Source: a virus
Reading direction: 5' to 3' (one strand)
Virus record (IMG/VR): IMGVR_UViG_3300045988_141753
DNA: 64,000 nt
Below the pieces are notes generated by a model. That model was not told where the DNA came from and did not search any database. It worked only from the letters and a program-made list of their open reading frames with translations. The position numbers were made by a program, and so were the translations under genes. This document shows, piece by piece, positions 2,317-62,289 of this stretch. Each line of letters opens with the position of its first letter. Within the stretch, counting starts at the first letter, position 1.

Positions 2317-2433
2317 ACTAAATTTAATGTGCTTTAGAAAGAAGGCATGATAAGATGGTGTGATTTTGAGTTCGCAAAATGATAATTTTATTTGACAACA
2401 AAATCTGATAAATACATAAAAGGAGAAAATAAA

Positions 2434-6179: not shown

Positions 6180-6196
6180 TTTTTTATAAATGAAGC

Positions 6197-6230
6197 AGTG
6201 AGGGTTATTCCCTCACTTGCCTTTATTTAG
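6197..6230 (+). terminator. Hairpin + T-rich tract after the ATPase gene
   Basis: agtgaggg (6197-6204) and ccctcact (6210-6217) with loop ttatt, followed by tgcctttattt. Confidence 0.5.
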
Positions 6231-6235
6231 TTATT

Positions 6236-6739
6236 TTGATTAAGGCGGTGAAATACTTGGCAAAAAGAAGAACAAAAGAACAGATAGAGAAAGACAAACA
6301 GGACAAAAAAACAAGAATACAATTTACAGATTGGCTATATAAACAATATGATATTTCATTCTTGCCAAAATATTTTTTTGTAAATCTTGATAAGGTGTAT
6401 AAAGGCACTTATAAGAATTTGAATAAACCTGTTCCTGTCGAAGATTTATGGGATATGTGGCGAAAGAAAATGTCATTTCTTCGTAAAGTACACGAGTTTA
6501 ATACTCGTAAAGGTAAAAAAATCGAAGGTGCAGCGTTAGTTACATATGATCTCGCTATTATCCTATCTAAATATGATGGTTATTTGAAATGGAAAGAAGA
6601 ACAGGCATTGGCTAAAACAGGTACAAGCGAAGAACAAGTTAATATAGATTATGAAAAAATGGCAACATCAAAGTCTCCCAAAGAACGTGATAAAAATAAT
6701 GACAGCCTTGATATTGACAGTATCATTGATGAAATTTAG
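6236..6739 (+). CDS. hypothetical protein
   Basis: Open frame between the ATPase terminator and the helicase. There is no 5' ATG; candidate starts are TTG 6236 or TTG 6257 (AAGGCGGTG upstream). No motif recognised. Confidence 0.45.
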   Translation: MIKAVKYLAKRRTKEQIEKDKQDKKTRIQFTDWLYKQYDISFLPKYFFVNLDKVYKGTYKNLNKPVPVEDLWDMWRKKMSFLRKVHEFNTRKGKKIEGAALVTYDLAIILSKYDGYLKWKEEQALAKTGTSEEQVNIDYEKMATSKSPKERDKNNDSLDIDSIIDEI

Positions 6740-6752
6740 GTAGGTGACAAAC

Positions 6753-11030: not shown

Positions 11031-12184
11031 TGTACAGTTCTTTACATAACCATACAATGTACTCGTTATTGGACGGCTATGGTACACCAAAAGAAATGCT
11101 TGAACAATGCCGAAAAGTCGGTATTAAAGCATATGCAGTTACGGAACATGGCAACCAATATTCATGGATATATTTCGATCAACTATCTAAAGAATATCCT
11201 GATATTAAATTAATATATGGCGTAGAGCTGTATGAATGTTTCGATACGGCTGTAAAAGATAAGAACAATAAGTATTTTCATCTTATCGCTCTCGCAAAAA
11301 ATGAGAATGGCAGAAAGGCTTTAAATAAAATTATCACTAAGTCAAATCTTGAAAATTTTTATTTTAAGCCTAGAGTGCAGATTTCAGATATTGCTCCGTA
11401 TGCAGAAGATTTAATTATTTGTTCTGCTTGTTTGGCTTCAAAATTAGCTAAAGAAAGTGATTTTAATATTTGTGTTAAATATATCGAAGAATACAAATCG
11501 TTATTTCCTAATTTCTATTTGGAAATGCAATCTCACAAATCAGAAGAACAAACTAATTACAATAAAAAGATCTTGAAACTATCTGAGGTAACAAACACTC
11601 CATACATAATTACTACAGATAGCCACGCAGCCACAAAGGAAGATTTATATTATCAGGGTAGGCACGTTCAGATAGCCCACGACACTGAAACAATGTCTGA
11701 AAGCTACGAAGGCTGTTATCTGCAAAGCGAAGAAGAAATTCATACAACTATGGATAAACAAATTGGGGTAAATAATGCTACAAAAGGTTTAAATCAGACT
11801 AATGCTTTAGCTGATATGATAGAAGAAGTACATATGCCTTTTCAAGACCCACAGTTACCGACATATCCCCTGCCAAGTGGATATAAGTCTAATAATGAAT
11901 TTCTTTTACATCTTATTGACGAGGGGTGGAAAACTAGAAATTTTGACAAGCTTTCTAAAGAAGAACAGAAGATAATGAAAGACCGACTAGACTATGAAAT
12001 GGGAATTATTCATCAAATGAATTTTGACGGTTATTTCATTATTGTATGGGACTTTATAAATTATGCGAAAACTCATGGGGTTAAAATAGGTTCAGGACGT
12101 GGCTCTGGAGCAGGAAGTCTTGTATGCTATACAATAGGTATAACTGACCTAAACCCTATTAAATATGGATTGATTTTTGAGCGT
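11030..12184 (+). CDS. dnaE: DNA polymerase III alpha (DnaE-type), exon 1 (PHP domain + start of palm)
   Basis: PHP motifs [12 protein letters not shown] and VTEHGN. The exon ends ...[32 protein letters not shown], and the frame stops 2 codons later. Confidence 0.85.
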
Positions 12185-13369
12185 AGATAGGTTGCACTCG
12201 TTAAATTCCGTTAATTCGGTATCAGCAAACTAAGACTTCTCATTGAGAGCAAACCGATAATGAGACAAGACCATAGACGAATAAGCTGACTAAGAAACCC
12301 TAAACCTATAACTAGGTGAGATAAAGGGAATACCGAGCCAAATCTTTTAGTGATAAAAGAAAGTGTGTAACGACTAGGAAATGAGACTTTAGAGCCAATA
12401 ATTTCCCACGAAGACGGAATAAAAACTTTTGTCTTTATCATTAGAAAAGGAATGATGAAGATAGAACAATTAAAAAGAAAAGAGACTTTACAAAACGAAG
12501 AACCCAAATGCCTAAAATGTGGCAGGTGTCTTACATCAAAACAAATTAGTAAAAAAAATAAATTTTGTTGTCATGGCTGTGCTACTTCATATAGACAAAT
12601 GGCACATGATCCAAATATTTTTGAAATAAAAGATAAGGATATTTTATATTATTTACTTGGACTTATTTTCACTGATGGCAATTTAGATGTGCTTGAAACA
12701 AGAGTTACTTTGTCGCTAACGCAAAAAGAAGTTATAGAATATTTATACCCTTATTTTTGTGATGTGGTGAAACGCAAAATATATGAATATCAGCCAAAGA
12801 ATTGTAAAAATGCCCATTGCTCTTATACAATTATAAATACTAATTTGGAAACAATAAATGAATTAAAAAAGATGTCTTTAACACCCAAGAACAGTAGTAA
12901 CAAGCAATTTCCGAATATACCCTTGCCATATATTTCGTCATTTTTAAGAGGTGTCTTTGATGGCGATGGGTGTATTTTTAATAATACGAACAAAGCGAAC
13001 AACAAAAAATATCAAAAAATAACAATAACCTGTGCTTCTGAAAAATTTGTTGATGGTTTGGTTAATATTTTAAATTATATTGGGCTGACTCCTACAGTTG
13101 TTCTGGACTCAAGACGCAAAAACAATGAAATAAAAACATACTACGTTTGTATTAACAGACAACGTGACGTCAGATACTTTTTTGATTTTATTTATAAAGA
13201 TGCACAAATTTATATAAATTATAAAAAGCAAAAATTCGCATAGATACATATGCGATAAAGACAAAAGTTTGAAAAATATAGTCTAAACTGGGTTGGAAGT
13301 AACCAACAGATGAAAATGAGGGAAACCTCCAGAGCATAGGATAAAGAGCCTATGGTTAATAACAAATTG
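12185..13369 (+). mobile_element. Group I intron 1 of dnaE, carrying a LAGLIDADG ORF
   Basis: The upstream exon ends in T and the intron ends ...ACAAATTG. AACGACTAG (12369-12377) pairs with ATAGTCT (13278-13284). The ORF sits in the loop of a perfect 17-bp stem (12423-12439 / 13254-13270). Confidence 0.85.
12452..13243 (+). CDS. LAGLIDADG homing endonuclease (double-motif) with N-terminal Cys4 finger
   Basis: Motifs LLGLIFTDGNL and FLRGVFDGDGCI. N-terminal CLKCGRC...CCHGC. Located inside the dnaE intron. Confidence 0.85.
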   Translation: MMKIEQLKRKETLQNEEPKCLKCGRCLTSKQISKKNKFCCHGCATSYRQMAHDPNIFEIKDKDILYYLLGLIFTDGNLDVLETRVTLSLTQKEVIEYLYPYFCDVVKRKIYEYQPKNCKNAHCSYTIINTNLETINELKKMSLTPKNSSNKQFPNIPLPYISSFLRGVFDGDGCIFNNTNKANNKKYQKITITCASEKFVDGLVNILNYIGLTPTVVLDSRRKNNEIKTYYVCINRQRDVRYFFDFIYKDAQIYINYKKQKFA

Positions 13370-13402
13370 TTCCTCAATCCTGAGAGAGTTTCAATGCCAG
13401 AT
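13370..13402 (+). CDS. dnaE: dnaE mini-exon (11 codons, FLNPERVSMPD)
   Basis: ttcctcaatcctgagagagtttcaatgccagat encodes the near-universal DnaE motif FLNPERVSMPD. This is exactly the piece missing between ...LIFER and LDIDV... Confidence 0.85.
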
Positions 13403-13776
13403 TGATTTTCGGTCGAGCATATGGGAAACCATATGTGTTAAGTGTGGTGAACCTATAAAATATAGGGTGTTAATTAAACAATTATTATAATTGTAGCCGC
13501 AGGAAATGGCGGTGTGTTAATTAGCTAACAGGGAATATCTAAGTCGTTCTGTCTGACGATATGACAATCCTGTGCGAAGTTGTATTTTATGATTTAATAA
13601 AAGGTATAGCACTTTGTCAAATTATAAGTACAAAACGTCAAACGACTAGCTCAATGGAGCGTAGGGTCAAGTGAAATTCTTGACTCGAAGTGCCACACGC
13701 CTAAACGTATTATTAGAACTGTAATACGCATGGTGAAGATATAGTCTATTCATTGCAGAAATGTAATGTAGTAAAG
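13403..13776 (+). mobile_element. Group I intron 2 of dnaE (ORF-less)
   Basis: AACGACTAG (13641-13649), then GTAGGGTCAAGTGA...CTTGACTCGAA (as in the T4 td core) and ATAGTCT (13741-13747). The upstream exon ends in T and the intron ends in G (13776). Confidence 0.85.
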
Positions 13777-15828
13777 TTGGACATCGATGTTTCAGACAGA
13801 CCTACAGTAATAAATTACCTGATTGACAAATATGGTGAAAATCGTGTTTGTCAGATTATAAATTTCTCATATATAACACCTGTTGTAGCCATAAAAGATG
13901 TTGGTAAAATACTAGGTTTTAAATATAATGAAATGGATAAACTGTCCAAAAAGTTTTCGTACAATACATTCCAAGAGTGTATTAACAACAACATAAACTA
14001 CTTATCTGAACACCCTGAGTACAGTGAGTTGCTTGACATAGCAGGCAAGTTGAGTGGTAGAGTTAAAACAGTTAGTTGCCACGCAGGTGGTGTCGGTATC
14101 GTTGATACTGACATTAGCGACTATATGGCAATGAAACTAGGCTCTGACGGTGAACACGTCATTCAGGTTGATAAAAGGCTTGTCGAACAAATAGGCATTA
14201 TTAAGTTTGATATTCTTGGTGTTCAGACCTTAAAAATGGTACAGGAAATTCAAAATGACTTGCACTTATCTGAATATGATATAAATATCAACAACCCCAA
14301 ATTTGAAAATGATAGAAGTCCATTTGAACTGTTAAACAAAGCATTGACGAATGGTGTGTTTCAGGTAGAAAGTGCAGGTATGAAAGACTTGTTGCTCAGA
14401 CTACAAGCAACTAATATGGAAGATTTGTCGGCTGTTTTGGCATTGTATAGACCTGATTCAATGGGAGCTTTGGAGGAGTTTATCAAATGTAAGCATGATC
14501 CTTCACTTGTTACCTATATACACCCCGACATGAAGCCTATTTTGGAAAGCACTTACGGCTGCATGATCTATCAGGAACAACTTTTGGATATTGTAAGAAC
14601 TTTTGGTGGCAGAAGCTATGGTGGAGCTGACTTATTCCGCAAGGCGATAGGCAAAAAGAATATTGAACTTGTTAAGCAAGAGTCAGAAAAGCTGTACCAA
14701 GAAATTATTGACAATGGATATTCTCATGAAATTGCCAAAACGATTAGTGAAGAATTGAAAACTAAAGGTGGTTATCTGTTCAACAAATCACATAGTTATA
14801 GCTACGCTGTTCTATGCTTTCAAACTGCTTATTTAAAAATAAATTACCCTGTTTATTTTTTCAAAGCACTATTTAATTTGAACAAAGATAAGGCGGGTAT
14901 GGTAAATAAATACATTGTAGACTCTAAACAGTTTGGAGTAACTGTTTTGCCACCTCATATTAATAAATCGCAAGTCGATTTTTCTATTTACGATAATAAT
15001 GTTATGTTTGGTTTTTCTGCGATTACAGGCATTGGTGAACGAATAGCCCAAGAGATTGTTGCTGAGCGTGAGAAGAATGGTAAGTATAAAAACCTTCAAG
15101 ATTTGCTGTCAAGAACAACACTGACAAAAACTCAGATTATTAACTTAATGAAGTCAGGTGCAATACCTACGAAAGATAAAAAGAATTGCCTATTGAAATA
15201 TTTGAAGTCATTGTATAAACCATTAGAATATAAAGAATTGTCTAAGTTGCCAACATATAACAAGCTTATTATTGACTATGATATTGATATTGAAAAATAT
15301 CGTATCGGCAACGGCAAGTATGACTATGACAAAGATCTGTTACTCACTCTTGTAAACCAGAAAAAGAAAGAAAAGTTTGACCTACAGCAAGAAGATAGGT
15401 TGAAACAATTTCTTTTAACCAATAACAAATATCTTGAAAACGCTGATTTTTGGGAGTTTGAAGCATTACAGATATTTATACATAATAACCCATTTGAAGA
15501 AGCACTCCCCTATCTAACAACAACCTTTGAAACCGTTGAGAATGATAATGATTGCGTTGTTGTAGGTGTTATTTCCAGAGTACAAAAGAAAAAGGACAGA
15601 AATAAAAAACCATTTGCTTTTGTGAATATTTACTCCACCTTCGGTATTATAGAGGGAGTTCTTTGGAATAGTCAACTTGTACAGTATGAAGATTTAGTCA
15701 AGAAAGGCTCTCAGGTTGCTATTAAATGCAGAAAAACAGATGAAGATAAAGTTACAATACAGGCTATGCGACCATATGTTGAATGGCTTTCAGAAAGGAA
15801 GAAAAGACATGGCAGAAAAAACATTTAA
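13777..15828 (+). CDS. dnaE: DNA polymerase III alpha (DnaE-type), exon 3
   Basis: The frame is open from 13753 without RBS or ATG. It begins LDIDVSDRPTVINYLIDKYGENRVCQIINF..., matching the DnaE DFDIDF...YG..RVAQI region, and continues through the fingers/HhH and OB-like C-terminus. Confidence 0.85.
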   Translation: MDIDVSDRPTVINYLIDKYGENRVCQIINFSYITPVVAIKDVGKILGFKYNEMDKLSKKFSYNTFQECINNNINYLSEHPEYSELLDIAGKLSGRVKTVSCHAGGVGIVDTDISDYMAMKLGSDGEHVIQVDKRLVEQIGIIKFDILGVQTLKMVQEIQNDLHLSEYDININNPKFENDRSPFELLNKALTNGVFQVESAGMKDLLLRLQATNMEDLSAVLALYRPDSMGALEEFIKCKHDPSLVTYIHPDMKPILESTYGCMIYQEQLLDIVRTFGGRSYGGADLFRKAIGKKNIELVKQESEKLYQEIIDNGYSHEIAKTISEELKTKGGYLFNKSHSYSYAVLCFQTAYLKINYPVYFFKALFNLNKDKAGMVNKYIVDSKQFGVTVLPPHINKSQVDFSIYDNNVMFGFSAITGIGERIAQEIVAEREKNGKYKNLQDLLSRTTLTKTQIINLMKSGAIPTKDKKNCLLKYLKSLYKPLEYKELSKLPTYNKLIIDYDIDIEKYRIGNGKYDYDKDLLLTLVNQKKKEKFDLQQEDRLKQFLLTNNKYLENADFWEFEALQIFIHNNPFEEALPYLTTTFETVENDNDCVVVGVISRVQKKKDRNKKPFAFVNIYSTFGIIEGVLWNSQLVQYEDLVKKGSQVAIKCRKTDEDKVTIQAMRPYVEWLSERKKRHGRKNI

Positions 15829-52834: not shown

Positions 52835-55800
52835 TTAATAATTTTTACCGACTATTCTATCCAAATCAGCCTGTTGCAGATAAGCGTTCATCTGCTCTAA
52901 GAATGTTGTGCCGTCTGTTGTATTGACAGTATCAATCTGGAATACAATAGTCTTATTGTTTGTGTCACTTCTATTTTGAATATTGTTTGGCGAGGACATT
53001 TTTGTCCTTACCAAATCTGTTATACCATTGTAAATCTTATCTCCAATATAATTGACAAGATTATCTGTATTAGCCACAAGGTTGTATAGCTTTCTGCCTT
53101 GCTCTGAATTGAAGATAGTTTCAACTGCATTTGGCTTTCCGTGAAGTTGTGCAAGCCCTGTATAATCATCAATACCACCTGAACGATATGGCTTAATAAT
53201 GTTGAACTTACTCTTTAAAGCATTAAGAATAGCTGTTAATGCACCCTTGTTCTTACCAAGCATAGGATTAGCCAATAGTTCTGATGAAACCATTTTGCCG
53301 TACAGTTCAGATTTTAACTGTTCTGCTTGTGCTTCATCAAGCCCTGTTCCAACAGTTTCACCGTCATATTGAACAAGATACAAACCATTCGATTTAGCAC
53401 CCTCAACAGAAATATCAGAATAGTCAAGAGCTTCCCTAGCACGTTTTTTACAATCCTCTAAGAACTTAGTCCTACCTTCCATAGTCTGCATTTCTTTTTC
53501 AGAAACATCTGTCAACTGTTTTATGTAGTCTTTATTCTTATTCGTAATATCTGTAACATACTTTGATAAAGCTTCTTTTTCTTTCTTGTATGCCTCAATT
53601 TCTTTGCTTTTAGCCGTTATCTCTTTTTCAACGCTCTCAATTTCCTTTTCAACCTGATCTGAAAGTTGAGAACGATAAGATTGGTATTTGCTTGCAAAGT
53701 CATTAAGAATATTTGTGTCTTGCTGTGCTATTTTGTCCGTCCAATTAACACCTAAAATATCTTTGGCAAGCTGTTCATTTTCTGTGTTAGTAGAGCTGTT
53801 GATAAGGTCTTGCCACTGTTGTTTATACTTATCCCACAATGAAGTTTCCTTATCACGCTGCTTTTCAAGGTCAGATACACGTTTATCAGCACTAGCCTGT
53901 TCATATTCCTGCTGTGCCTTGTTTACTTCCTCGGTATTGGTTTCCAAATGCCAACCACTAGCTTCAGAATAAACATTTACCTTTTTCTTTTTAGCATTTT
54001 CAAGATTATTTAGCTTTTCCTGTAAGTCAATAGTATCTTGTTTTTCTTCATTAACAGCTTTAATGGCATCAATTTCAGCATTATATCTGTCCTCAATAGC
54101 TGATTTCTGCTCGTCAATATAAGACTCTACTGTGTTTGCAACAGTTTCGTACTGAGAAATAATATTGTCAAGTTGAGTTTTTTGTTCTGTAAGAATATTC
54201 TTTTGTTCTTCAAGAACATCTTTCTCGTCCTCAGCTTTATCTATAAGATCATCAAACGTTTCCTCATAAATTTTCTCAATATCGTCTACAGACAGTTTAA
54301 CGTCGGAAATAGAAGAAGCTACCTCTCCAAGTTTTTCAAGACTTGAAATAAGACCTTCTACATTAGCCTTATCATTGCCATTCGGCAAACTGTTTGATAG
54401 TTCTTTTAATCTGTTTATTAATTCTTTAGGGTTTTGTCTTATCAGTTTCTTAACTTCTTCTGTCAGCTTTTCCGTGTTGCCCGAGAATTTAGCCAAGTCA
54501 GGATATGATTTAAACAGTTCAACTAAGTCACTATCCGAAATACTTCCGTCTTGCAGACTTGTTAAAGTATCTTTAAGTGATTTTGCTTTATTCTGAACTT
54601 CGTCAATATCGTCCGTCCACTCAGAAATATCAAAAGTACCTGTTGTTAATTTTGCAGGCAAAGTTTCAAAGAAAGTATTAACATAGTCAATTAAATCCTC
54701 GTCACCATTAGCCAAGTCAATTAATTTGTCCTTGTATTGCTGAGTTAAATCATAAAGCCTATCAACATCATCAATGTTTTTGGTTTCTACAGCATGACTA
54801 TAACTTTCAGTAGCTTTCTGAGCTTCATCAAATGCTTTGCTAAATTCTTCACTTGTGTTATAGTTTTCAAGTGTTTTCTGAATTTCGTTGTATTTATCAA
54901 CGGCATTAGAAAGTTTATCATATTCCTCTGTTGTGGTAGCAATTTCTTTTTGCAAATCAGCCAACCACTTGTTACGATTATCGTCTTTTGAAATGTTTGC
55001 CCATTTCTCGGATAATTCATCATAAACCTTTTGCATAGTATCAATACGTTCTTGCATTGTACCTGCGAAAAGTAAATTACTATAAGCATTAGTGCTTATA
55101 CCAACATTATTATACTTTTTAAGAATTGGTTCAATGTCATTCTTGTAACTGTACCAATCACCATAACCACGAGAGCCGACCTTGTTGATATCAGCATTAG
55201 AATTATAGTCACTGAATAGACCGTCTGATACATAGGCTTGCCCTTTGCCACCGTAATCAGTAGTAAAAAGACCCTTGTTAAAAGAGCTTCCCTCTTTTAA
55301 TTTCTTTTGTGCTAAATCATAGGCTTCTTTAACACTCAGCTTTCTATCACTATCATCAGGATCAGTAATATCCGACTCTTGATAAAGTTCACTCTCAGCC
55401 TTTTCTTTTTTCCATTCTTTGATTTTCTTAATATTTTCAGACATTTTGCCATTAAGCAAGTCAAGGCTCTTAGCTTCATTACCGTACTTGTCAATTAAGT
55501 TGTCCTGAATAGTATTCAAATCGTCCTTAACAGTTGACAAGTCATCTGTTGTCGCAACCAAAGTTACATAACGATTTACTAATTCGTTTACTGACTTGTT
55601 TTCTTCATCTAATTTGTCAATAGAGTCAGAGAAACTACTTGTGAACTGAGCTAAACTTTCTTTTGCATTATCGGTACCATTGACAATATTATCAAAAAGT
55701 GCTATAATCTTATCAATAACCAAACCTGCAAGCAAGCCGACAGCCATATTACCAACAGTTGATAATATTTTCATGCCAGCGGCAGCAAGCTTAGAAGAAG

Positions 55801-56014
55801 TCGCAACACCCTTTAAAGAAGCGGAAAGTATTTCTTCTGATACCGCTGCACCATTAGCACTTCTAGCAACATTGAGAGTTGTTTCAGAGCAACCCTTTAA
55901 AGCTATTGACTCGGCTTCAGCTACCGATTTACCCTGTGCCAAAAGGTTATTAAACTGACGGACATTTGCTACTTCATTTGCAGGAATTAGAGTTATATCC
56001 GATTTATTATGAAG
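52835..56014 (-). CDS. Tape measure protein, exon 4 (5' boundary unresolved, frame open up to 56143)
   Basis: More than 1060 codons with a hydrophobic block (AAAGMKILSTVGNMAVGLLAGLVI) and long coiled coils. There is no ATG/GTG with an RBS anywhere in the open 5' part. Confidence 0.7.
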   Translation of the reverse strand, partial: LHNKSDITLIPANEVANVRQFNNLLAQGKSVAEAESIALKGCSETTLNVARSANGAAVSEEILSASLKGVATSSKLAAAGMKILSTVGNMAVGLLAGLVIDKIIALFDNIVNGTDNAKESLAQFTSSFSDSIDKLDEENKSVNELVNRYVTLVATTDDLSTVKDDLNTIQDNLIDKYGNEAKSLDLLNGKMSENIKKIKEWKKEKAESELYQESDITDPDDSDRKLSVKEAYDLAQKKLKEGSSFNKGLFTTDYGGKGQAYVSDGLFSDYNSNADINKVGSRGYGDWYSYKNDIEPILKKYNNVGISTNAYSNLLFAGTMQERIDTMQKVYDELSEKWANISKDDNRNKWLADLQKEIATTTEEYDKLSNAVDKYNEIQKTLENYNTSEEFSKAFDEAQKATESYSHAVETKNIDDVDRLYDLTQQYKDKLIDLANGDEDLIDYVNTFFETLPAKLTTGTFDISEWTDDIDEVQNKAKSLKDTLTSLQDGSISDSDLVELFKSYPDLAKFSGNTEKLTEEVKKLIRQNPKELINRLKELSNSLPNGNDKANVEGLISSLEKLGEVASSISDVKLSVDDIEKIYEETFDDLIDKAEDEKDVLEEQKNILTEQKTQLDNIISQYETVANTVESYIDEQKSAIEDRYNAEIDAIKAVNEEKQDTIDLQEKLNNLENAKKKKVNVYSEASGWHLETNTEEVNKAQQEYEQASADKRVSDLEKQRDKETSLWDKYKQQWQDLINSSTNTENEQLAKDILGVNWTDKIAQQDTNILNDFASKYQSYRSQLSDQVEKEIESVEKEITAKSKEIEAYKKEKEALSKYVTDITNKNKDYIKQLTDVSEKEMQTMEGRTKFLEDCKKRAREALDYSDISVEGAKSNGLYLVQYDGETVGTGLDEAQAEQLKSELYGKMVSSELLANPMLGKNKGALTAILNALKSKFNIIKPYRSGGIDDYTGLAQLHGKPNAVETIFNSEQGRKLYNLVANTDNLVNYIGDKIYNGITDLVRTKMSSPNNIQNRSDTNNKTIVFQIDTVNTTDGTTFLEQMNAYLQQADLDRIVGKNY

Positions 56015-56159
56015 CAAGTTCTTTAAATCTGAAAGTTGTGTTATAGTCTTGCCTAATATACTGATATTAGTCTTGCCACTACTCTCATTTTCAACTGTTT
56101 TAAAGACCTTAACAGTTATTCGTTTATAGTTTTGATATAAATTTTAAAGGAGAATAGTT

Positions 56160-56585
56160 ATGACAAACAACCAAGAGAAAACAGGCAATGTAATTAACGA
56201 ACATACCACATCTACTAATAATGAGACTACCGAGCAAGTTCATTATTCGATAGGCAGAATTGTCATATTTATAATAATTGTTATTTTGTTTATATTAATG
56301 ATTATTGACTTAACTTCTAAAGCCCTACACTACGAAAAAGACTACAGCCAAGAAGCTTACACAGCAGCTAAATTCTATGTAAATAAACAGTTAAAAGCCC
56401 CTGCCACGGCAGATTATCCAATGTATGATAAAAACTTTATTACGCATCATAATGATAGCTACACCGTATCATCTTATGTGGATGCTGAAAATAGTTTTGG
56501 TGTTAAGGGCAGATTGTACTATACTGTCACTATGGAACGTGACGGCAAGGATTGGACTAACGTAAATGTTAATTTGAGAGAATAG
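56160..56585 (+). CDS. Membrane-anchored small protein (moron-like; superinfection-related?)
   Basis: AAAGGAG RBS. TM IVIFIIIVILFILMII. The extracytoplasmic domain has LKAPATADYP...VDAENSFGVKGRLYY, a common small-exported-protein pattern. It has its own terminator. Confidence 0.65.
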   Translation: MTNNQEKTGNVINEHTTSTNNETTEQVHYSIGRIVIFIIIVILFILMIIDLTSKALHYEKDYSQEAYTAAKFYVNKQLKAPATADYPMYDKNFITHHNDSYTVSSYVDAENSFGVKGRLYYTVTMERDGKDWTNVNVNLRE

Positions 56586-56670
56586 ATAGTGAATACGAGT
56601 GTATGAGTGTATGAGTATACACAAGTGTACAAATGGGCAAAAGTAAACAATGTGTGTTCATGTATAACAA

Positions 56671-56700
56671 AAGCTCCGAGAATATCGGAGCTTTATTTGC
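56671..56700 (+). terminator. Rho-independent terminator of the plus-strand membrane-protein gene
   Basis: aagctccga / tcggagctt stem with loop gaata, followed by tatttgc. Confidence 0.6.
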
Positions 56701-56749
56701 ATTGTATTCTATTTATTTTTTTGACTTTAACGCTTTGTAGTTTATGCCA

Positions 56750-56787
56750 ATTAAAACATATAGCCTCGCTTTAGGCGAGACTATATG
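56750..56787 (-). terminator. Rho-independent terminator of the MazF-like cassette
   Basis: 13-bp stem catatagtctcgc / gcgaggctatatg (minus sense) with loop ctaaa, followed by tttt. Confidence 0.65.
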
Positions 56788-56880
56788 AAACTACATTTGA
56801 ACTAGACTATTTATTAGTCGCTTGTCTAGTAGCGACAAACATTTGAAGTGTTTGTGGAGAACTAAGGTCTTATTTTATGA

Positions 56881-57270
56881 CTATTCATTTGCTGCGTTCA
56901 GTAACTCGTTGTCACCCTTGCCGTTTTCCATTTTAACCTGATCTGACTCAAGCAAAAACTGAACATAATTTTCAAGAATAATATCAATATCATCTTTATG
57001 TAGTTCACCAATTTTTCTTCGGAACTTACTGTTATCCAACGATACGGTTTTGGAAATTCGTGCTACAGACTCATGCTTTAATCCTGCCTCTTGCCAATGA
57101 GTAATAGGTACATCATATTTATCGGCTTCTCTCACTTCATGACTTGTCACTTTAATTGACAGTACACACAAAGGTTGCACACTCAATATAATAACAGGTC
57201 TATCCTTTGAGATATTTTTATCTTCAAAGGGAAAATTAGCGTACCACAACTCCCATTGTTTCTTCGCCAT
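56881..57270 (-). CDS. PemK/MazF-family toxin-like protein
   Basis: WELWYANFPFEDKNISKDRPVIILS...IKVTSHE...GLKHESVARISKTVSLDNSKFRRKIGELHKDD follows the MazF/PemK pattern (GD.y..d..P..G.E....RP.vv.q...i..iTs...S.v....i.t.d..rl....g.l). Confidence 0.65.
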   Translation of the reverse strand: MAKKQWELWYANFPFEDKNISKDRPVIILSVQPLCVLSIKVTSHEVREADKYDVPITHWQEAGLKHESVARISKTVSLDNSKFRRKIGELHKDDIDIILENYVQFLLESDQVKMENGKGDNELLNAANE

Positions 57271-57275
57271 TTATG

Positions 57276-57458
57276 TCACTTCCTATCGTCATCGATTTTT
57301 GCATAATTATCGTAGATTTTATCATTCCACTCATCATCTTTGTTTATTGTCGGATTGTGCGGTACATTACTCAGTATAAAATCTAAATTGGCTGTAATAA
57401 ATTGATTAAATTCCTCAACTGACATCTTAGTATTCTGTACATTTATTGTTTTAGCCAT
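57276..57458 (-). CDS. small acidic protein, antitoxin candidate (by position)
   Basis: ATG 57458 follows AGAGGTGAGG. Its stop is 5 nt before the toxin ATG. No fold recognised. Confidence 0.45.
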   Translation of the reverse strand: MAKTINVQNTKMSVEEFNQFITANLDFILSNVPHNPTINKDDEWNDKIYDNYAKIDDDRK

Positions 57459-57533
57459 AAACCTCACCTCTAAATTTTAAAATAATTTTATACCTTTGTG
57501 TGTAGTTGTTAATTAAAATGAAATACTTATAGT

Positions 57534-57782
57534 TTAATCTTCAAGTGATTTCCTAATATCTTCGTCCCATGGCTGTCCGTTAAAAGTCGAATGTTTCATC
57601 ATCTCTCTTGCCTGTTTTTTTATTTTTGAAATAACTGCTGCGGAGGACTTGGAATTAATAAATTCGTCCGCTTTATCTTCTCTAACAACGAAGGCAAGAT
57701 TTACAGGTTTACTCATAACTGCCATATCTATCAACTCCTCCTTCTTTTTACGTACATTCTTTTTGTTATTAGTTTCTCCCAT
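57534..57782 (-). CDS. small basic protein, first gene of the cassette (possible RHH-type regulator)
   Basis: ATG 57782 follows GAGGTGA; an alternative is ATG 57725 after AAGGAGG. KPVNLAFVVREDKADEF looks like an RHH strand-helix. This reading is weak. Confidence 0.4.
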   Translation of the reverse strand: MGETNNKKNVRKKKEELIDMAVMSKPVNLAFVVREDKADEFINSKSSAAVISKIKKQAREMMKHSTFNGQPWDEDIRKSLED

Positions 57783-57824
57783 GCGGTATCACCTCTATTA
57801 TATTATAGGGGCAAGCACCTAAAA

Positions 57825-57881
57825 TATGCGTATAACTAATAAATTATGCGTAAGAATAATAATTTATGCGTCTAACGCATA
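57825..57881 (-). promoter_or_regulatory. Phased operator array (TATGCGT x3 at 20-bp spacing + palindrome)
   Basis: TATGCGT occurs at 57825, 57845 and 57865. The third copy forms the palindrome TATGCGT-cta-ACGCATA (57865-57881), right at the predicted start site. Confidence 0.55.
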
Positions 57882-57892
57882 TTTCTATTATT

Positions 57893-57921
57893 AGTATACC
57901 CATTTTGGGAACTAATGTCAA
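57893..57921 (-). promoter_or_regulatory. Consensus promoter of the MazF-like cassette
   Basis: On the minus strand: TTGACA (57921-57916), 17 nt, then TATACT (57898-57893). Confidence 0.65.
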
Positions 57922-58461
57922 GCCATATATTGGTTGCATTAACAAACATTGTGTGAATATAAATGTAAAATTTTTATTAACGAACAAATTTAGTGTTGAC
58001 ATACGCAAATGAATAGTGTATAATAAATCACTATGCAAAATGATTAATAACAGTTTTATCCCACCCTTACTGTTAAAGGGCAAAACTAAATAAATGAGGG
58101 ATAATTCATTTTGGAAACGCTATAGGTGTTACCTATAGTTGGAGTACACCTTTATCTTGCCACAAGATAGTTACCGTCTACTCTCTGAACCTAGTCCGTA
58201 TCTCCCGATAGGGGTTGGCTGCTGACCTGACATTTTTAACAACACTTAGCACCTATTGTAATAGTATAATAGGCTTTTATCTCAGCATATGTTATCTTTG
58301 CTATTGTTTCCGAGTTTCCTCACTCTTGTAATACCATTGCTACAAGTAGTTGCAAAGCTTTAGCCGTTCCCAGCAATTTGGCAACCTTATTTTAAAACGT
58401 GTGTGACCTATGCACATATAGTTTGTGGCTGTGCATAAGTTGGCATCTTTAATAATTGTTT

Positions 58462-58782
58462 ACCTACGTTTTTGAATGATAATCCTGCCATAACGGTAGG
58501 AATAAGTGTTTCTAAAACACCGAATTTACTAATTAGATTATCAAGAACATCAATAATTTGTGTTCCACTGGTGATACCGAATTTAACTAAATCACCATTA
58601 ATCAGAGTAGCTGACAAATTTTCAATACTTGTCTGAAAACCTTGCACTCTTCCTTGAATAGAGTCAAGGTATTTTTCATACTCTGACATAGCAGACCCAG
58701 CAGAGCCTATTGAGTCATTAACAATTTTATCCGCTTGACTCATATTCGTAAGCAATGCAGTAATTGTATTGCCTCTTTGCTT
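58462..58782 (-). CDS. Tape measure protein, exon 3
   Basis: Starts KQRGNTITALLTNMSQ... with no ATG or RBS and continues the TMP core. The 3' end is placed after ...AGLSFKNVG by analogy. The frame stops 17 codons later. Confidence 0.65.
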
Positions 58783-59252
58783 CAATTATATTAAAGTAAG
58801 TCGCAAATTTACTTATATGTTATATAACATATCCTATGCTTTCACATAGAGCTTAGACTATTTCTTAATCACGTCATTTATGACAGCAATTATACCTTTT
58901 CCGTTTAAGGGTTATTCTCCCACTCCATTTGCGATTGAGCCGTACTTCTTTTGTTGCAACTATTCAGGATTTCCACCTTTATTTTATTGTTACAACCCCA
59001 TATGGGGAATAGTCGTTGAACTTTTACCCTCGACTTAAACTGTCCTATGATCTAGGATAACGTTAGGGTACTTAGCTGCATGAACAGAGATTGTTACTGT
59101 ACTTAGGCTTTTGACCTTATACAATCCTTACGTTATTTCTGCTTTCGCACCGTCATAATGTAATTTCTTCATTATTGTGGTGTAAGGCTTTACTCATTAC
59201 CTGCAATTAAATATATTCTTTATGCACATTTCTGTACATTCAGGTAAACTCT
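58783..59252 (-). mobile_element. Group I intron B in the TMP gene (ORF-less)
   Basis: The exon ends GCAGGT, and ACCTG 8 nt into the intron can form P1. AACGACTAT (59017-59009) pairs with ATAGTCT (58861-58855). The intron ends ...ATATAATTG. Phase 0 on both sides. Confidence 0.8.
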
Positions 59253-59522
59253 ACCTGCAATTTTCTCTATGACAGCGGCTTTTGATGTATCAGTAAGGTC
59301 GTTCCAAACATTGGCGATACCTTTCATAATTTCATAGGTACTCTTAAAGTTCTGAGAGTCCTTCATTATGTCAAAGCCACCTGTGCCATTTACATTAGTA
59401 AGAGCTTTAATATCTTCCCTCAGTTTTGAGGTTGATACTGCCATGCCCTCTGTTGACTCGCCTGCATCTTCTAGTTCTGTTTTCGCTCCACGAAGTCGCA
59501 TTGACAGAACTTTCAAACTGTT
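59253..59522 (-). CDS. Tape measure protein, exon 2
   Basis: NSLKVLSMRLRGAKTELEDAG...AAVIEKIAG is the conserved TP901-type TMP core segment. There is no ATG or RBS at the 5' end. Confidence 0.75.
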
Positions 59523-59823
59523 CAATCTGTTACTTTCCCAATTATATTGGTACTGACTACATTAAATATGTAGCGGTTAGTCATTTCTGGCTAACTCTCG
59601 TATTTCTTTTTTTATAGGATTATAATACGATGCTCGGACTATATATTACGCCCTGTAATAAGGACGGATAACTTCAATACATATGTTGCCATATATATCC
59701 TGTAGTCTCTACGGTTACTCAAAAAAAATTGAGTCTTACCTCGGTCTTAACTATCCTTTAGCCTTTGACCGATATAGTTATCTGCATACTATATATTATT
59801 ATATAGTCGGGCAATTTGCGTTT
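59523..59823 (-). mobile_element. Group I intron A in the TMP gene (ORF-less)
   Basis: The exon ends GCGGGT, and GCCCG 12 nt into the intron can form P1 (CGGGU/GCCCG). GACTA...TAGTC pair present. The intron ends ...ACAGATTG. Phase 0 on both sides. Confidence 0.65.
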
Positions 59824-62289
59824 ACCCGCTTCGGCTGCGTCTCCAGTTATTTCTGTAATGGCTGTACCCATTGCTATTGCTTGGTCTAGTGTATTTCCTG
59901 CTACGCTCAGTGAAGATACTGACCTTGACAACATATCACCAATATCACTCGCTGAAACAGCATACTTGTTTGATATTGCGTTAAACTTATCAACAATATT
60001 AATAGACTCGTCAACTGTCATGTTATAGCTTTTCATAACTGTTGTTAGGTCTTGTACTGCTGTTGCATTATCTACTTCACCAACAACTGAATAAATACCT
60101 GAGTTTGTGGCAAGTGTTTCAGCTTCATCTAAACTATAACCACGTTTACCCCATTCTGCGGTTTGAGAAATAAGATCAGACAAATCAATCTTTAAATCTT
60201 TAGCCTTTTGACCTATATTATCAAAGAACTCGGCATATTGCTGATTTGTGTTATCAGTAACCTTACGCAAGTCTGTCATAGCTGTATCAATATCTACAAC
60301 ATTATTATAGAACTTAACAGCTTCTCTGGATATACCTGAAATCACAGTAGTTAAACTCATCCAGCTTGTGAATTTTAAAGCGTCCTCTTTAATCTTGTCA
60401 AAAAAGCTTAAACCATTCACACCTGCTGCCTGTGCCTCAGAACTCATTGTCCTAAAACTACGATTGATTTTATCAACATTGACTTTCAAATCGCTCGCAG
60501 TTAGATCGCTAGCATTAAGCAACTTTTTGAGTGAAGCTATCATATTATCAGTTTCAACCTGATATGTACCGCCATTAAAAGTATTCTTGCTCATGGCTTT
60601 AGTATTAGCCTGTTGCCATGTCTGAATTGTGTATATTAACTTTTTAATGTTCTGCCTTGTAGCTTCTATACTCTGTTGTGATTTGTTGCTAGAAAAACTA
60701 GCCTTATAGGCTACATCTGCCCTCTTTAACTCATTTGTTAGTTCATTGAGTTTAATACGATATTCGTCTAATGCTTTAGGATCGCCACCCACATTAGATA
60801 AACTTGTTTTTAACTCATTAAACTTTTCTTGAAACTCTCCGCTAAAAATAGGCGACTCTTTCCACTTTGTTTCTAAGGTGGTGAGATTTTGCGTAAGTCT
60901 AGCTACATTATTTTCTGTTTTAGTAGATGTAGCTGACGATTTATCAGCAGACTTAGCTTTTACAATAGCCTGTTCATATTCACCTGTTTTCTTGAGCAGA
61001 CGTATTTGTTCTTCATATTCCGAAGAAATTAATTTATGTTTTTCTAAATAGCTTTCGGCTGTAGATATTCTACCCTTTGCATTTTTTATTTGCCTATTTA
61101 TTTCAACAGTTTCCTCTTTGCCTGCTGAAATACGTTGCTTTTCTAACTTGTTAATTAGTGAAATATTTTCAATAATTTTATTGTATCTACTAGCTTGCTG
61201 TTGTGCCTCGGAATTATCAGATTTTTCAAGCAACTGTAAATTCTTTATTTCGGTTTCTGCTTTTTTAACCGAAACAACTAACTCACGATATTCCTCAGAC
61301 CATTTTTCATTTCGCCCAAATTGATTTTCGGTTTCATTGACCTTGTTTAATTGGGAATTTAAGTTACCAATTAATTCGGAAACCTCTGACGGTTGTTGTT
61401 TAAGTTTTGAAAAACTATTGGATATTTCCTGTATTGTTGCAGGCATTTTAGCCAAAGTGTTTTCGGCATTTGTAGTTTCATTAAAAGAACTTGTAAGAGA
61501 TTTTAAATTTTGTCTGATATTGCTTGCAGTAGTTTTTAATGAATTGAATAGCTTATCAACCTCTGCAATAGAGCCACCCTTGCCAAGATTGTCAATAGCA
61601 ACATTAACGGCATTAATTTCATTTCCTATACCCGATTCAATACCTTTATTCGCTGACTTAAATGCCGAAAGTTTAGCAGTATAATCCGACTTAGCCTTAT
61701 CAATATCCGCAATCAGCTTTAATATACCCTTTTCAGAACTGCTACCCGATAGATAGTCAAATGACCCATTTGTTTCGTTCAGAGCATATTTCAGTTTTTC
61801 GACTTGACCTGTCAAGCTTGTAACTTCTGCCGTAATTTGAGTAACTTCACCCGAACTATCTTTAGTCCATGAAAATGTCGGATTACCAAACTGACTCAAA
61901 ACTTTTCTTGCATTTTCAATAGTTTTAACAATATCTATCTGTCCGTCTTTATTAAAACCTGCCTTGAAAGTTTCTGCAAGAGTCGTGTCAATATTCTGTA
62001 TCTCATGCTTTATATTTTTAACAGAGCTAGTTACCTGTTTTTCAGCAGCCTTTATACTACTCTGAATAGAAGTTACATTTAAACCACCAATATCTATTTT
62101 TAGATTTTTGCTGATTGTAGCAAGTTGAGATTGAATTTTCTTTTGTGTTTTATTCAAATCCAACTCACCAATGATTTTAGCATGAGCTTTATTGTCATTT
62201 GCCAGTACGTTATTTAATTTAGGTATATCGTCCTTAACTTTACTTGTGTCAAGTTCCACAGGAACTCGTATTTTTAAATCATCTGCCAT
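59824..62289 (-). CDS. Tape measure protein, exon 1
   Basis: ATG 62289 follows GAGGTGAAG. Long coiled-coil N-part. It ends ...SVAGNTLDQAIAMGTAITEITGDAAEAG, the start of the TMP core. The unspliced frame stops 21 codons later. Confidence 0.8.

What the first reader, a model, noticed from the sequence alone, without database searches (positions are those of the whole stretch)
58783..59823. Tape-measure core interrupted by two ORF-less group I introns 270 nt apart
Three consecutive minus-strand ORFs (59758-62289, 59220-59525, 58408-58785) each run into a stop shortly after conserved sequence. The second and third lack an ATG and RBS.

Removing 59523-59823 and 58783-59252 gives one continuous TP901-type TMP core: ...TEITGDAAEAG|NSLKVLSMRLRGAK...AAVIEKIAG|KQRGNTITALL...

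Both upstream exons end in GGT. Both introns end in ...ATTG. Both are phase 0. Both have a short IGS complementary to the exon end (CAGGU/ACCUG and CGGGU/GCCCG). Intron B has the td-like AACGACTAT...ATAGTCT pair.

Introns in a tail-length ruler gene are not among the classic phage intron locations, which are td, nrd, DNA polymerase, and some lysin, terminase or capsid genes.
Basis: partly seen in the sequence, partly recalled or inferred. Interest (0 to 1): 0.7.

Follow-up and report, generated by a model that had tools for sequence, protein, structure and literature searches.

The report
Tape-measure gene split by three introns

Summary
Segments 59523-59823 (A, 301 nt) and 58783-59252 (B, 470 nt) are precise, phase-0 insertions. 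In 47 near-identical relatives all four combinations occur: neither 18, A only 9, B only 9, both 11. Intron-less alleles join exactly at the predicted junctions. Longer versions of A and B in relatives carry homing-endonuclease-like ORFs. The A fold has covariation support for P1-P9 across three lineages. B is td-like, with P7.1/P7.2 and compensatory changes in several helices.

Corrections:
- Group I introns in tape-measure genes were described in 2008, at three sites in Bacillus cereus-group prophages, so A and B are new members of a known kind.
- B's splice-site pair is U-A (C-G in relatives), not the canonical U·G.
It has a group I core followed by a variable cargo island: a promoter-like site, a PemK toxin module, a terminator-like site and a reverse-strand gene. 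Its remote 3' splice site is supported by a P10 pairing that I predicted and then found in a diverged relative.

The four exons give a 2109-aa protein colinear with uninterrupted tape-measure proteins. Splicing itself is inferred, not shown.

The parts
59824..62289 (-). TMP exon 1 (822 codons), ending ...GCC GAA GCG GGT (AEAG)
   Evidence: ORF list. Exon end fixed by intron-less alleles. Aligns to Sundance TMP residues 659-897, ending exactly at 59824.
59523..59823 (-). Intron A, 301 nt, ORF-less group I intron. IGS GCCCG at 59808-59812 pairs with exon CGGGU (U.G). P7 is GACUA 59703-59707 with UAGUC 59637-59641. The 3'-terminal G is at 59523.
   Evidence: Absent in 27 and present in 20 of 47 scored relatives. 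Minimum-free-energy z-score -4.5. RF00028 only 15.4 bits. Covariation: 95.4% of cells paired, 20 compensatory pairs against 7.8+-1.9 in shuffles, 0 of 500 shuffles as high. A 1538-nt version has a 339-aa nuclease ORF in the P6a loop.
59253..59522 (-). TMP exon 2 (90 codons), NSLKVLSMRLRG...AAVIEKIAG
58783..59252 (-). Intron B, 470 nt, ORF-less td-like (subgroup IA-type) group I intron. IGS UACCUG at 59241-59246. P7 is GACUAU 59009-59014 with AUAGUC 58856-58861. The 3'-terminal G is at 58783.
   Evidence: Absent in 27 and present in 20 relatives. Partial RF00028 hit of 23.5 bits over the region of its 3' core (P7.1 to P9; the model's 5' hairpin is mis-assigned to P7/P7.1). Local similarity to intergenic or intron-bearing regions of Bacillus AR9/PBS1, Staphylococcus and Enterococcus phages. 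RNAalifold with homologues L056 and L051 gives 21 of 73 compensatory pairs, including P2, P3, P7.2, P8 and P9. A 1793-nt version has a 432-aa homing-endonuclease-like ORF in a P9-region hairpin loop.
58462..58782 (-). TMP exon 3 (107 codons), KQRGNTITALL...LSFKNVG
56108..58461 (-). Intron C (inferred), 2354 nt. The group I core is 58120-58461. The IGS has a P10 strand UUAAAGAU at 58445-58452 and a P1 strand GCCAAC at 58439-58444. A closing stem pairs UAGUUUUG 58081-58088 with CAAAACUA 56127-56134. The 3'-terminal G is at 56108.
   Evidence: RF00028 38.5 bits, E=1.8e-7. Core covariation: 99.1% paired, 8 compensatory pairs against 1.6+-1.1 in shuffles. The only 8/8 complement to the P10 strand in 2671 nt lies at 56107. 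P10 and the closing stem covary in L064. In-frame coding starts at GTC, with a stop codon directly upstream in 2 of 3 allele families. Present in all 47 close relatives and in the more diverged L029-type loci.
57534..57782 (-). Cargo ORF inside intron C (82 aa, no family match), downstream of the promoter-like site TTGACA-17-TATACT at 57893-57921
57276..57467 (-). Cargo ORF inside intron C (63 aa), directly upstream of the toxin gene. An antitoxin role is inferred from position only.
56881..57270 (-). Cargo ORF inside intron C: PemK/MazF-like toxin (129 aa), followed by a terminator-like hairpin at 56757-56787 on the same strand
   Evidence: PF02452 E=2.2e-12. PHROG 1936 MazF-like E=3.9e-20. 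Terminator-like site. The cassette is present in only some relatives.
56160..56585 (+). Cargo ORF inside intron C on the opposite strand (141 aa, predicted membrane protein, unknown function). Present in every related locus whose island could be delimited.
52835..56107 (-). TMP exon 4 (1090 codons plus stop), starting GTC TTT AAA (VFKTVENESSGK...)
   Evidence: The four-exon product is 2109 aa with a single terminal stop. It gives one BLASTP alignment (query 338-1196, E=5e-101) to an uninterrupted 2421-aa TMP, crossing all three junctions.

Best explanation
The window holds the tail tape-measure (TMP) gene of an SPbeta/Sundance-like siphophage or prophage. Relatives come from human-gut samples and include a prophage of Hominimerdicola aceti (Oscillospiraceae).

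The gene is split into four exons by three group I introns.

**Introns A and B.** A (301 nt) and B (470 nt) are compact, ORF-less derivatives of mobile introns. Their full-length versions in sister genomes carry homing-endonuclease-like genes. Both lie in the conserved PhageMin_Tail core, in phase 0, directly after Gly GGT codons.

After transcription each RNA should fold into the group I core. P1 pairs the exon end with the internal guide sequence. The P7 guanosine pocket, P3-P9 and the terminal G complete the core. Each intron should then excise itself by two transesterifications and restore the reading frame.

**Intron C.** The third intron starts right after ...FKNVG. Its ribozyme core lies in the first ~340 nt. 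Its 3' splice site is about 2 kb further on, and the intervening DNA is a hypervariable island of accessory genes. The island sits in the loop of a peripheral stem.

**Shown:** the exact insertion boundaries, the presence/absence polymorphism, the structure covariation, the endonuclease-bearing variants, and the colinearity of the joined product with intact TMPs.

**Inferred:** that splicing happens, that it is self-catalysed, and, for C, that it works in cis across the island.
For: **Boundaries and polymorphism**
- 47 closely related loci (97-100% identical in the flanking exons) fall into: neither intron 18, A only 9, B only 9, both 11.
- Intron-less alleles read GC(A/G)GGA|AA(C/T)AGT and GCAGG(C/T)|AAGCAA. 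Intron-bearing alleles always have GGT at -1.

**Protein continuity**
- PF10145 spans junction A.
- 129 phage TMP records align in one piece.
- Sundance TMP shows no indel at the junctions.
- One HSP, E=5e-101, crosses all three junctions against an uninterrupted 2421-aa TMP.

**RNA structure**
- A: 20 compensatory pairs in P3, P5, P6, P6a, P7, P7.1, P8, P9 and P9.1-9.2, 0 of 500 shuffles as high, slid controls 1-4.
- B: compensatory P2, P3, P7.2, P8 and P9, plus a partial RF00028 hit.
- C: RF00028 E=1.8e-7 and 8 compensatory pairs.

**Mobility**
- Long A and long B carry ORFs that match phage homing or intron-encoded nuclease families and, weakly, I-Bth0305I.
- A- and B-type introns occupy other TMP sites in Thomasclavelia phage TR-TP1, MT835469 and L051.

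**3' splice site of C**
- From the IGS of the diverged relative L064 (GAAUAC|GCC) I predicted that exon 4 would start GUAUUC. It is found at ...TTTTTG|GTATTCAAT, the start of a 1087-codon in-frame continuation.
- In the window the only 8/8 complement to the P10 strand lies at 56107.
- Indels upstream of every candidate start codon are multiples of 3.
Against: - No RNA data exist, so splicing is untested.
- None of A (15.4 bits), B (23.5) or C (38.5) reaches the RF00028 gathering score of 50.
- B's predicted P1 puts U opposite A, and C opposite G in relatives, instead of the near-universal U.G wobble.
- For C, a terminator-like hairpin on the sense strand (56757-56787) and a convergent gene lie between the core and the 3' splice site.
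- No C-less allele was found in any collection.
- In some L029-type contigs the island exceeds 8 kb without reaching exon 4.
- In 8 relatives an IS607-like element sits in the P4 strand of C.
Confidence: 0.85

Rival explanations
1. A and B are non-splicing insertions, such as decayed intron relics or small mobile elements. They truncate the tape-measure protein, so the copies that carry them are defective prophages.
For: Each insert brings in-frame stops shortly after the exon. Rfam scores are below the gathering threshold. B lacks the U.G pair. One carrier is an integrated prophage.
Against: - The inserts are 98-100% conserved in 20 of 47 independent assemblies, many of 90-115 kb, with intact exons on both sides.
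- Helices are maintained by compensatory changes between lineages, which implies selection on the RNA fold.
- Boundaries obey the U(-1) and terminal-G rules and are phase 0.
- No target-site duplication or terminal inverted repeats were seen at the junctions.
Confidence: 0.05
2. The third interruption is not a working intron. The TMP is a genuinely split gene. The N-terminal part ends in the relic ribozyme (...FKNVGKQLLKMPTYAQPQTICA*). The C-terminal part (from about 56107 to 52835) is translated separately, and a gene island lies between two independent cistrons.
For: - A sense-strand terminator-like site and a convergent gene sit inside the interval.
- The island is 2.3-5.5 kb in close relatives and more than 8 kb in some L029-type contigs.
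- A 40%-identical relative (L001) also ends its TMP ORF just after the same hydrophobic segment, followed by unrelated genes and no detectable group I core.
- An IS607-like element in the P4 strand is tolerated in 8 relatives.
Against: - There is no conserved start codon or ribosome-binding site for the C-terminal part. Conservation in the reading frame, with 3n indels, runs upstream of every candidate start up to GTC, with stops directly before it in 2 of 3 allele families.
- The P10 pairing is adjacent to the P1 strand and was predicted then confirmed with compensatory changes in L064.
- The core is kept under structural selection at 73% identity.
- Uninterrupted homologues run straight through the junction.
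Confidence: 0.2
3. Intron C is spliced in trans. One transcript carries exons 1-3 plus the ribozyme core and stops at the internal terminator. A second transcript carries the 3' tail plus exon 4. The two associate through the closing stem and P10.
For: A sense terminator-like site lies inside the interval. An 8-10 bp long-range stem flanks the island and covaries between lineages. Island length is highly variable.
Against: No promoter-like site was found that would drive a separate sense-strand transcript for exon 4. The only hit nearby on that strand (56033-56006, 9 of 12) lies inside exon 4. From my own knowledge, trans-spliced group I introns are rare and not known in phages. Cis read-through under late-gene antitermination is simpler.
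Confidence: 0.08

Closest known systems
Group I introns TMP-IVS1, IVS2, IVS3a/b in the tape-measure gene of Bacillus cereus-group prophages (Tourasse and Kolsto 2008, PMC2504315)
   Same: Several group I introns of the IA1/IA2 type lie in one TMP gene. Their distribution among related prophages is patchy. Many lack a complete homing endonuclease gene. Related introns are adapted to different TMP sites through P1. The A and B families here show the same behaviour.
   Different: The host clade differs (Oscillospiraceae gut phage). Whether the insertion sites coincide was not compared here. Megablast of the TMP region against the phage collection found nothing, and sensitive blastn of A, B and C gave no hit to those prophages. 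Here the third intron carries a gene island.
T4 td intron and other subgroup IA2 phage introns
   Same: B shares AACGACUAU...AUAGUCU (P7), a P7.1 hairpin directly after P7, P7.2 and the J8/7 sequence AAGAAAUAGUC. Endonuclease ORFs sit in peripheral loops in the long versions.
   Different: B's splice-site pair is U-A or C-G rather than U.G. The host gene is structural rather than one of nucleotide metabolism. Subgroup assignment is by inspection, not by a subgroup-specific model.
T4 sunY (nrdD) intron with a remote 3' splice junction (cited from my own knowledge: Michel et al. 1992)
   Same: In intron C the catalytic core sits at the 5' end, a long insert separates it from the 3' splice site, and the site is defined by P10 and terminal pairings.
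   Different: The insert in C is not a single endonuclease ORF. It is a multi-gene island with a promoter-like site, a terminator-like site and a reverse-strand gene of its own.
IStrons (group I intron fused to an IS200/605- or IS607-family element; Tourasse 2014 PMC4227781; Zedaveinyte 2023 bioRxiv 10.1101/2023.11.20.567912)
   Same: The ribozyme lies at the 5' end, a kilobase-scale DNA cargo follows, and the 3' splice site is at the far end. A true IS607-type IStron-like element is nested in C in 8 relatives.
   Different: In the window intron C carries no transposase or TnpB. Its position is fixed in the TMP gene in every relative, while its cargo varies by cassette exchange.

Membership tests
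Group I intron (Rfam RF00028) | Score at or above the curated gathering threshold (50 bits) | tested here: not met
   A 15.4 bits, B 23.5 bits partial, C 38.5 bits with E=1.8e-7. Only the unrelated intron at 13473-13768 passes, at 51.5 bits. Low scores are common for A+U-rich phage introns with extra helices, so this lowers the claim but does not exclude it.
Group I intron | P1 helix between the 5' exon end and an internal guide sequence, with a U.G wobble at the splice site | tested here: inconclusive
   A: CGGGU|AA with UUGCCCG, U.G present. It covaries with the TR-TP1 intron (AGGGU with GCCCU). C: GUAGGU with GCCAAC, U.G present. B: the helix is present and covaries, but the splice-site pair is U-A (window) or C-G (L051, L056).
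Group I intron | Conserved core P3-P9 including the P7 pseudoknot (guanosine-binding site) and J8/7 | tested here: met
   A: all helices assigned, 95.4% of cells paired, 20 compensatory pairs. B: compensatory P3, P7.2, P8 and P9; P7 GACUAU with AUAGUC, J8/7 AAGAAAUAGUC, P4 and P6 assigned by inspection of the aligned sequences. C: aligned by Infernal to P3-P9, with GAGUA/UACUC replacing the consensus GACUA/UAGUC, and 8 compensatory pairs.
Group I intron | Terminal G at the 3' end and exact restoration of the reading frame on removal | tested here: met
   A and B end ...ATTG and C ends ...TTAAG. Intron-less alleles fix the A and B junctions. The four joined exons give one 2109-aa ORF colinear with intact TMPs.
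Group I intron | Self-splicing with a guanosine cofactor | not testable with these tools
   Needs in vitro transcription and splicing, or RNA-seq.
Mobile group I intron (homing) | An intron-encoded homing endonuclease and presence/absence polymorphism at one site | tested here: met
   The window copies have no ORF. Relatives carry a 339-aa ORF (P6a loop of A) and a 432-aa ORF (a P9-region hairpin loop of B) that match PHROG homing or intron-encoded nuclease families, with a weak match to PDB 3r3p. Polymorphism is shown. Endonuclease activity is not tested.
Subgroup IA (P7.1/P7.2 between P7 and P3') | Extra hairpins inserted between the 5' strand of P7 and the 3' strand of P3 | tested here: met
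   B: the P7.1 hairpin (by inspection) and the covarying P7.2 stem lie between P7 and P3'. A: one 10-bp GNRA-capped hairpin in that position. The IA1 versus IA2 call was not made formally.
IStron | A group I ribozyme fused to an IS200/605- or IS607-family element with tnpA and/or tnpB | tested here: not met
   Intron C in the window holds no transposase or TnpB. Such genes occur in the island or core only in some relatives.
Group II intron | Six-domain RNA with domain V, usually with a reverse-transcriptase ORF | tested here: not met
   No group II family match in cmscan of the region at E<=10. The inserts are 301 and 470 nt and have no RT ORF.
Intein | An in-frame protein insert removed after translation | tested here: not met
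   Both inserts carry in-frame stop codons within 6-22 codons of the exon end.

The most novel reading that the evidence does not exclude
Intron C is a working group I intron whose peripheral loop has become a hot spot for accessory genes. Cassettes are exchanged between phages, and the island ranges from about 0.7 kb to more than 8 kb. Cargo includes a PemK toxin module, other small cassettes, TnpB elements and possibly YD/RHS-type toxins. The island lies inside an essential tail gene and appears to have its own promoter and terminator. The prophage could therefore express the cargo while the gene is silent, and splice the whole island out of the late mRNA. In some relatives an IS607-type IStron is nested in the ribozyme's P4 strand, which would make a ribozyme within a ribozyme. 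Separately, the B family may be a natural group I lineage that uses a Watson-Crick pair instead of U.G at the 5' splice site.
Probability: 0.55. Interest if true: 0.75.

Novelty: new member of a known kind. Interest (0 to 1): 0.5.

Why it matters
For A and B the value is mainly correct annotation. Gene callers report this tape-measure gene as three or four unrelated short ORFs, and the same happens in deposited genomes such as Thomasclavelia phage TR-TP1. The population data also give an unusually clean natural record of intron gain, loss and endonuclease decay in one gene of gut phages: four intron states plus endonuclease-bearing forms.

The wider point is intron C. If it splices, a self-splicing intron would be serving as a neutral landing pad for toxin and defence-type cargo inside an essential structural gene. 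That would extend the IStron idea from transposons to accessory ("moron") gene islands. It would also explain why TMP genes of this phage group look permanently broken.

Tried and rejected
- **Megablast to known phages.** The TMP region found nothing.
- **Rfam.** At gathering threshold it finds none of the three TMP introns. A multi-locus E-value search lost even C, because of the filters.
- **Searches for a C-less allele.** Two large protein searches, one with the exon 4 N-terminus and one with an exon 3/exon 4 chimera, returned only truncated gene calls. No protein spanned the junction.
- **Distant relative L001 (40% identity).** It has no detectable group I core after its TMP ORF and no exon-4-like sequence on the 2.5 kb left.
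- **An exon directly after the P9 hairpin of C (58119 onward, ORF to 57844).** Rejected: relatives differ there by 1-4 nt indels, so it is not coding.
- **GCCU at B nt 65-68 as a U.G-forming guide sequence.** Rejected: it belongs to a covarying stem, CCUUAC with GUAAGG (comparison of the sequences).
- **The 11-nt repeat AAUUGCAGGUA inside B as a duplicated exon.** Rejected: it is the conserved J3/4-P4-J4/5 core sequence and is present in L056, whose exon differs.
- **Cargo proteins.** Pfam gave nothing for the island proteins called c7, c8, c9, c11 and c16.
- **The IStron ribozyme in relatives.** cmscan did not detect it, although td-like P7/P7.1/P8/P9 motifs are visible by eye.
Full report
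**1. Observation**

The second and third have no ATG. Their listed TTG 'starts' are just the last three bases of the preceding inserts, which both end ...ATTG.

Deleting 59523-59823 (301 nt, A) and 58783-59252 (470 nt, B) leaves exons whose lengths are multiples of three. The result reads ...TEITGDAAEAG|NSLKVLSMRLRG... and ...AAVIEKIAG|KQRGNTITALL....

- The joined core matches PF10145 PhageMin_Tail at 86 bits, across junction A.
- It aligns as a single piece to tape-measure genes (annotated as such where the record is annotated) in 129 phage records.
- The 2528-aa TMP of Brevibacillus phage Sundance aligns residue by residue across both junctions without an indel.

**2. The natural experiment**

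A scan of viral contigs gave 50 loci. Forty-six of them, plus a prophage in Hominimerdicola aceti (Oscillospiraceae), are 97-100% identical to the window in the TMP exons.

Segment-by-segment BLAST shows every combination:

| State | Loci |
|---|---|
| Neither insert | 18 |
| A only | 9 |
| B only | 9 |
| Both | 11 |

Intron-less alleles read GC(A/G)GGA|AA(C/T)AGT at site A and GCAGG(C/T)|AAGCAA at site B. The inserts are therefore exact and in phase 0. Intron-bearing alleles always have T as the last exon base. The one- or two-base ambiguity of the boundaries is resolved only by the choice that puts U at -1 and G at the intron's 3' end, which is the group I rule.

Some relatives hold longer versions.
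- **Long A** is 1538 nt, with a 339-aa ORF in the P6a loop. The ORF has zinc-finger repeats and a C-terminal nuclease region. It matches PHROG 1271 and, weakly, the I-Bth0305I 'mobile intron protein' 3r3p.
- **Long B** is 1793 nt. It is 99% identical to the window copy, plus a 432-aa ORF in a P9-region hairpin loop. The ORF matches PHROGs annotated as homing or intron-encoded nuclease at E=1e-24 to 1e-57.

**3. RNA structure**

*Intron A.* It folds 4.5 SD better than shuffles. The minimum-free-energy fold already shows P1 (CGGGU|AA with UUGCCCG, with U.G), P2, P3, P4, P5, P6/P6a, a GNRA-capped hairpin between P7 and P3', P8 and three P9 hairpins. GACUA (59703-59707) and UAGUC (59637-59641) form P7.

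Infernal aligns A to RF00028 in the same way, but at only 15.4 bits.

I aligned the window copy with four close variants, two long-A copies with the ORF removed, and a homologous intron I found in the TMP gene of Thomasclavelia phage TR-TP1. That intron lies between gp29 and gp31, at a different site (VYEEG|VGW). On this alignment 95.4% of cells are paired. Twenty pairs carry compensatory double changes, against 7.8+-1.9 in shuffles (0 of 500 as high) and 1-4 in slid controls.

*Intron B.* It has AACGACUAU...AUAGUCU (P7), a P7.1 hairpin, P7.2, a small P8 and J8/7 AAGAAAUAGUC, like T4 td. Homologues occur in two other gut-phage TMP genes (L051, and L056 = MT835469), eight codons upstream of the window's site.

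RNAalifold on the three sequences finds 21 of 73 pairs with compensatory changes. These include P2 (GAAA loop), P3 (AUAUAUU with AGGUAUAAU against ACACAUU with AAGGUGUG), P7.2, P8 and P9. The internal AAUUGCAGGUAAU, which repeats the exon junction, is the J3/4-P4-J4/5 consensus rather than a duplication.

**4.

Exon 3 ends ...FKNVG (GGT) at 58462. Immediately after it lies the best Rfam hit of the region: RF00028, 38.5 bits, E=1.8e-7, at 58120-58443. Its P7 is GAGUA with UACUC in place of the consensus GACUA with UAGUC.

This core is present in all 47 close relatives and, at 73% identity, in a 62%-identical lineage (L029 type). On an alignment with that lineage 99.1% of cells pair. Eight pairs are compensatory, against 1.6+-1.1 in shuffles.

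The sequence right after the P9 hairpin is not coding, because relatives differ there by 1-4 nt indels.

The large downstream ORF (to 52835) is the rest of the TMP, but it has no conserved start codon.
- Across three diverged allele families, in-frame conservation with 3n indels runs upstream to an invariant AG|GTCTTTAAA.
- Two of the three families have a stop codon immediately before GTC.

The guide region of C reads 5'-UUAAAGAU-GCCAAC.
- GCCAAC pairs with the exon 3 end GUAGGU, including the U.G wobble.
- UUAAAGAU pairs 8/8 with GUCUUUAA at 56107. That is the only such site in 2671 nt.

**5. A prediction that held**

The L029-type guide region reads GAAUAC-GCC, so I predicted that its exon 4 would begin GUAUUC.

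A metagenome scan returned a longer contig (L064) in which intron C is only 1030 nt. It ends ...TTTTTG|GTATTCAATCAA, which opens a 1087-codon in-frame continuation. Relative to the window, two P10 pairs changed on both sides (C-G to A-U, and U-A to C-G), while the protein still starts VF.

A second long-range stem flanks the island and also covaries:
- window: UAGUUUUG at 58081-58088 with CAAAACUA at 56127-56134;
- L064: AUAUGUUUUG with CAAAACGUAU.

The four joined exons give a 2109-aa ORF. One BLASTP alignment (query 338-1196, E=5e-101) to an uninterrupted 2421-aa TMP (L061) crosses all three junctions and continues 175 residues into exon 4.

I therefore place intron C at 58461-56108 (2354 nt).

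**6. What lies inside C**

Between the core and the 3' tail, the window has:
- a promoter-like site, TTGACA-17-TATACT, at 57893-57921;
- ORFs of 82 and 63 aa;
- a PemK/MazF toxin gene (56881-57270);
- a terminator-like hairpin (56757-56787);
- a convergent gene for a 141-aa membrane protein (56160-56585).

Among relatives the interval is 2285-5503 nt and mosaic. The PemK cassette alternates with another three-gene cassette. Other variable parts are further ORFs, a TnpB element and an IS607-like element. In some L029-type contigs a 641-aa ORF and a YD/RHS-like ORF of more than 1800 aa follow the core.

This speaks for a cargo hot spot held in the loop of a peripheral stem. It is comparable to the remote 3' junction of the T4 sunY intron (from my own knowledge) and to IStrons.

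It also raises the main doubts: a sense-strand terminator, convergent transcription and very long islands. I put cis splicing of C at roughly 0.55-0.65. A truly split gene is about 0.2 and trans splicing under 0.1.

**7. Comparison with what is known, and verdict**

Group I introns in TMP genes are already on record. Tourasse and Kolsto (2008) found three sites (IVS1-3, classes IA1/IA2) in Bacillus cereus-group prophages. These had patchy distribution, degenerate endonuclease genes and adaptation of related introns to different sites through P1. The A and B families behave the same way.

A and B are new members of a known kind, in a new host clade, documented here by an unusually complete population series. 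What goes beyond the known is intron C with its gene island, and perhaps B's non-wobble splice site. Both need RNA evidence.

I score interest at 0.5: modest for the finding as written, and higher if C is confirmed.

Noticed in passing
window 12191-13768 (+), core hit 13473-13768: A fourth group I intron, the only one to pass Rfam's gathering score (RF00028, 51.5 bits). It splits a DNA polymerase III alpha-like gene: ORF 11030-12190 upstream and ORF 13753-15828 downstream, the latter with PF07733/PF17657. It carries a LAGLIDADG homing-endonuclease ORF at 12452-13243. The exact splice sites were not worked out.
   Followed up: partly
L004 7221-9764; also L035, L041, L043, L048-L050 and L054 (Hominimerdicola aceti prophage): A 2544-nt IS607-type element is inserted in the P4 5' strand of intron C (TTGCTGG|GGAACGG). 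It holds a MerR-type serine recombinase, a TnpB and a RAGATH-18 RNA at 71.5 bits. Its first ~500 nt show td-like group I motifs by eye: CAACGACUAU, a P7.1 hairpin, GAAGAUAUAGUCU and a P9 hairpin. cmscan did not report them. It looks like an IStron nested in a ribozyme core, and its 5' flank ends in G as in 'group B' IStrons.
   Followed up: partly
L055 (Thomasclavelia phage TR-TP1, PQ571309) about 1640-3215: The deposited annotation lists 'tape measure protein' gp29, 'HNH endonuclease' gp30 and 'hypothetical' gp31. These are one TMP gene interrupted at ...VYEEG|VGWTWQ... by an A-family group I intron that carries the nuclease ORF in its P6a loop. The intron is not annotated in the record.
   Followed up: partly
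L067 1741-9495 and L074 4233-11793: In these L029-type metagenome contigs the DNA after the intron C core encodes a 641-aa protein, then a secreted ORF of more than 1800 aa; YD/RHS-type repeats were seen by eye in the corresponding L074 ORFs. Exon 4 is not reached within 8 kb. Either the cargo can be very large or these copies are rearranged.
   Followed up: no
window 57996-58024 (+) and 57893-57921 (-): Two divergent near-consensus sigma-70-type promoter-like sites (12/12 and 11/12) lie just downstream of the ribozyme core. Repeated ACGCATAA motifs and a palindrome (57865-57881) sit just downstream of the minus-strand site. The plus-strand site would drive antisense transcription across the intron C core and exon 3.
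   Followed up: no
window 59241-59252 with the exon end 59253-59258; L051 and L056 equivalents: [quoted passage not shown] It covaries, rather than showing the near-universal U.G wobble.
   Followed up: partly
L001 (MT837120) 5198-7667: A 40%-identical relative also ends its TMP ORF just after the first hydrophobic segment (...TQLGEPKM...). Unrelated genes on both strands follow, and no group I core is detectable. An interruption at this point of the gene may be older and more widespread than intron C itself.
   Followed up: partly
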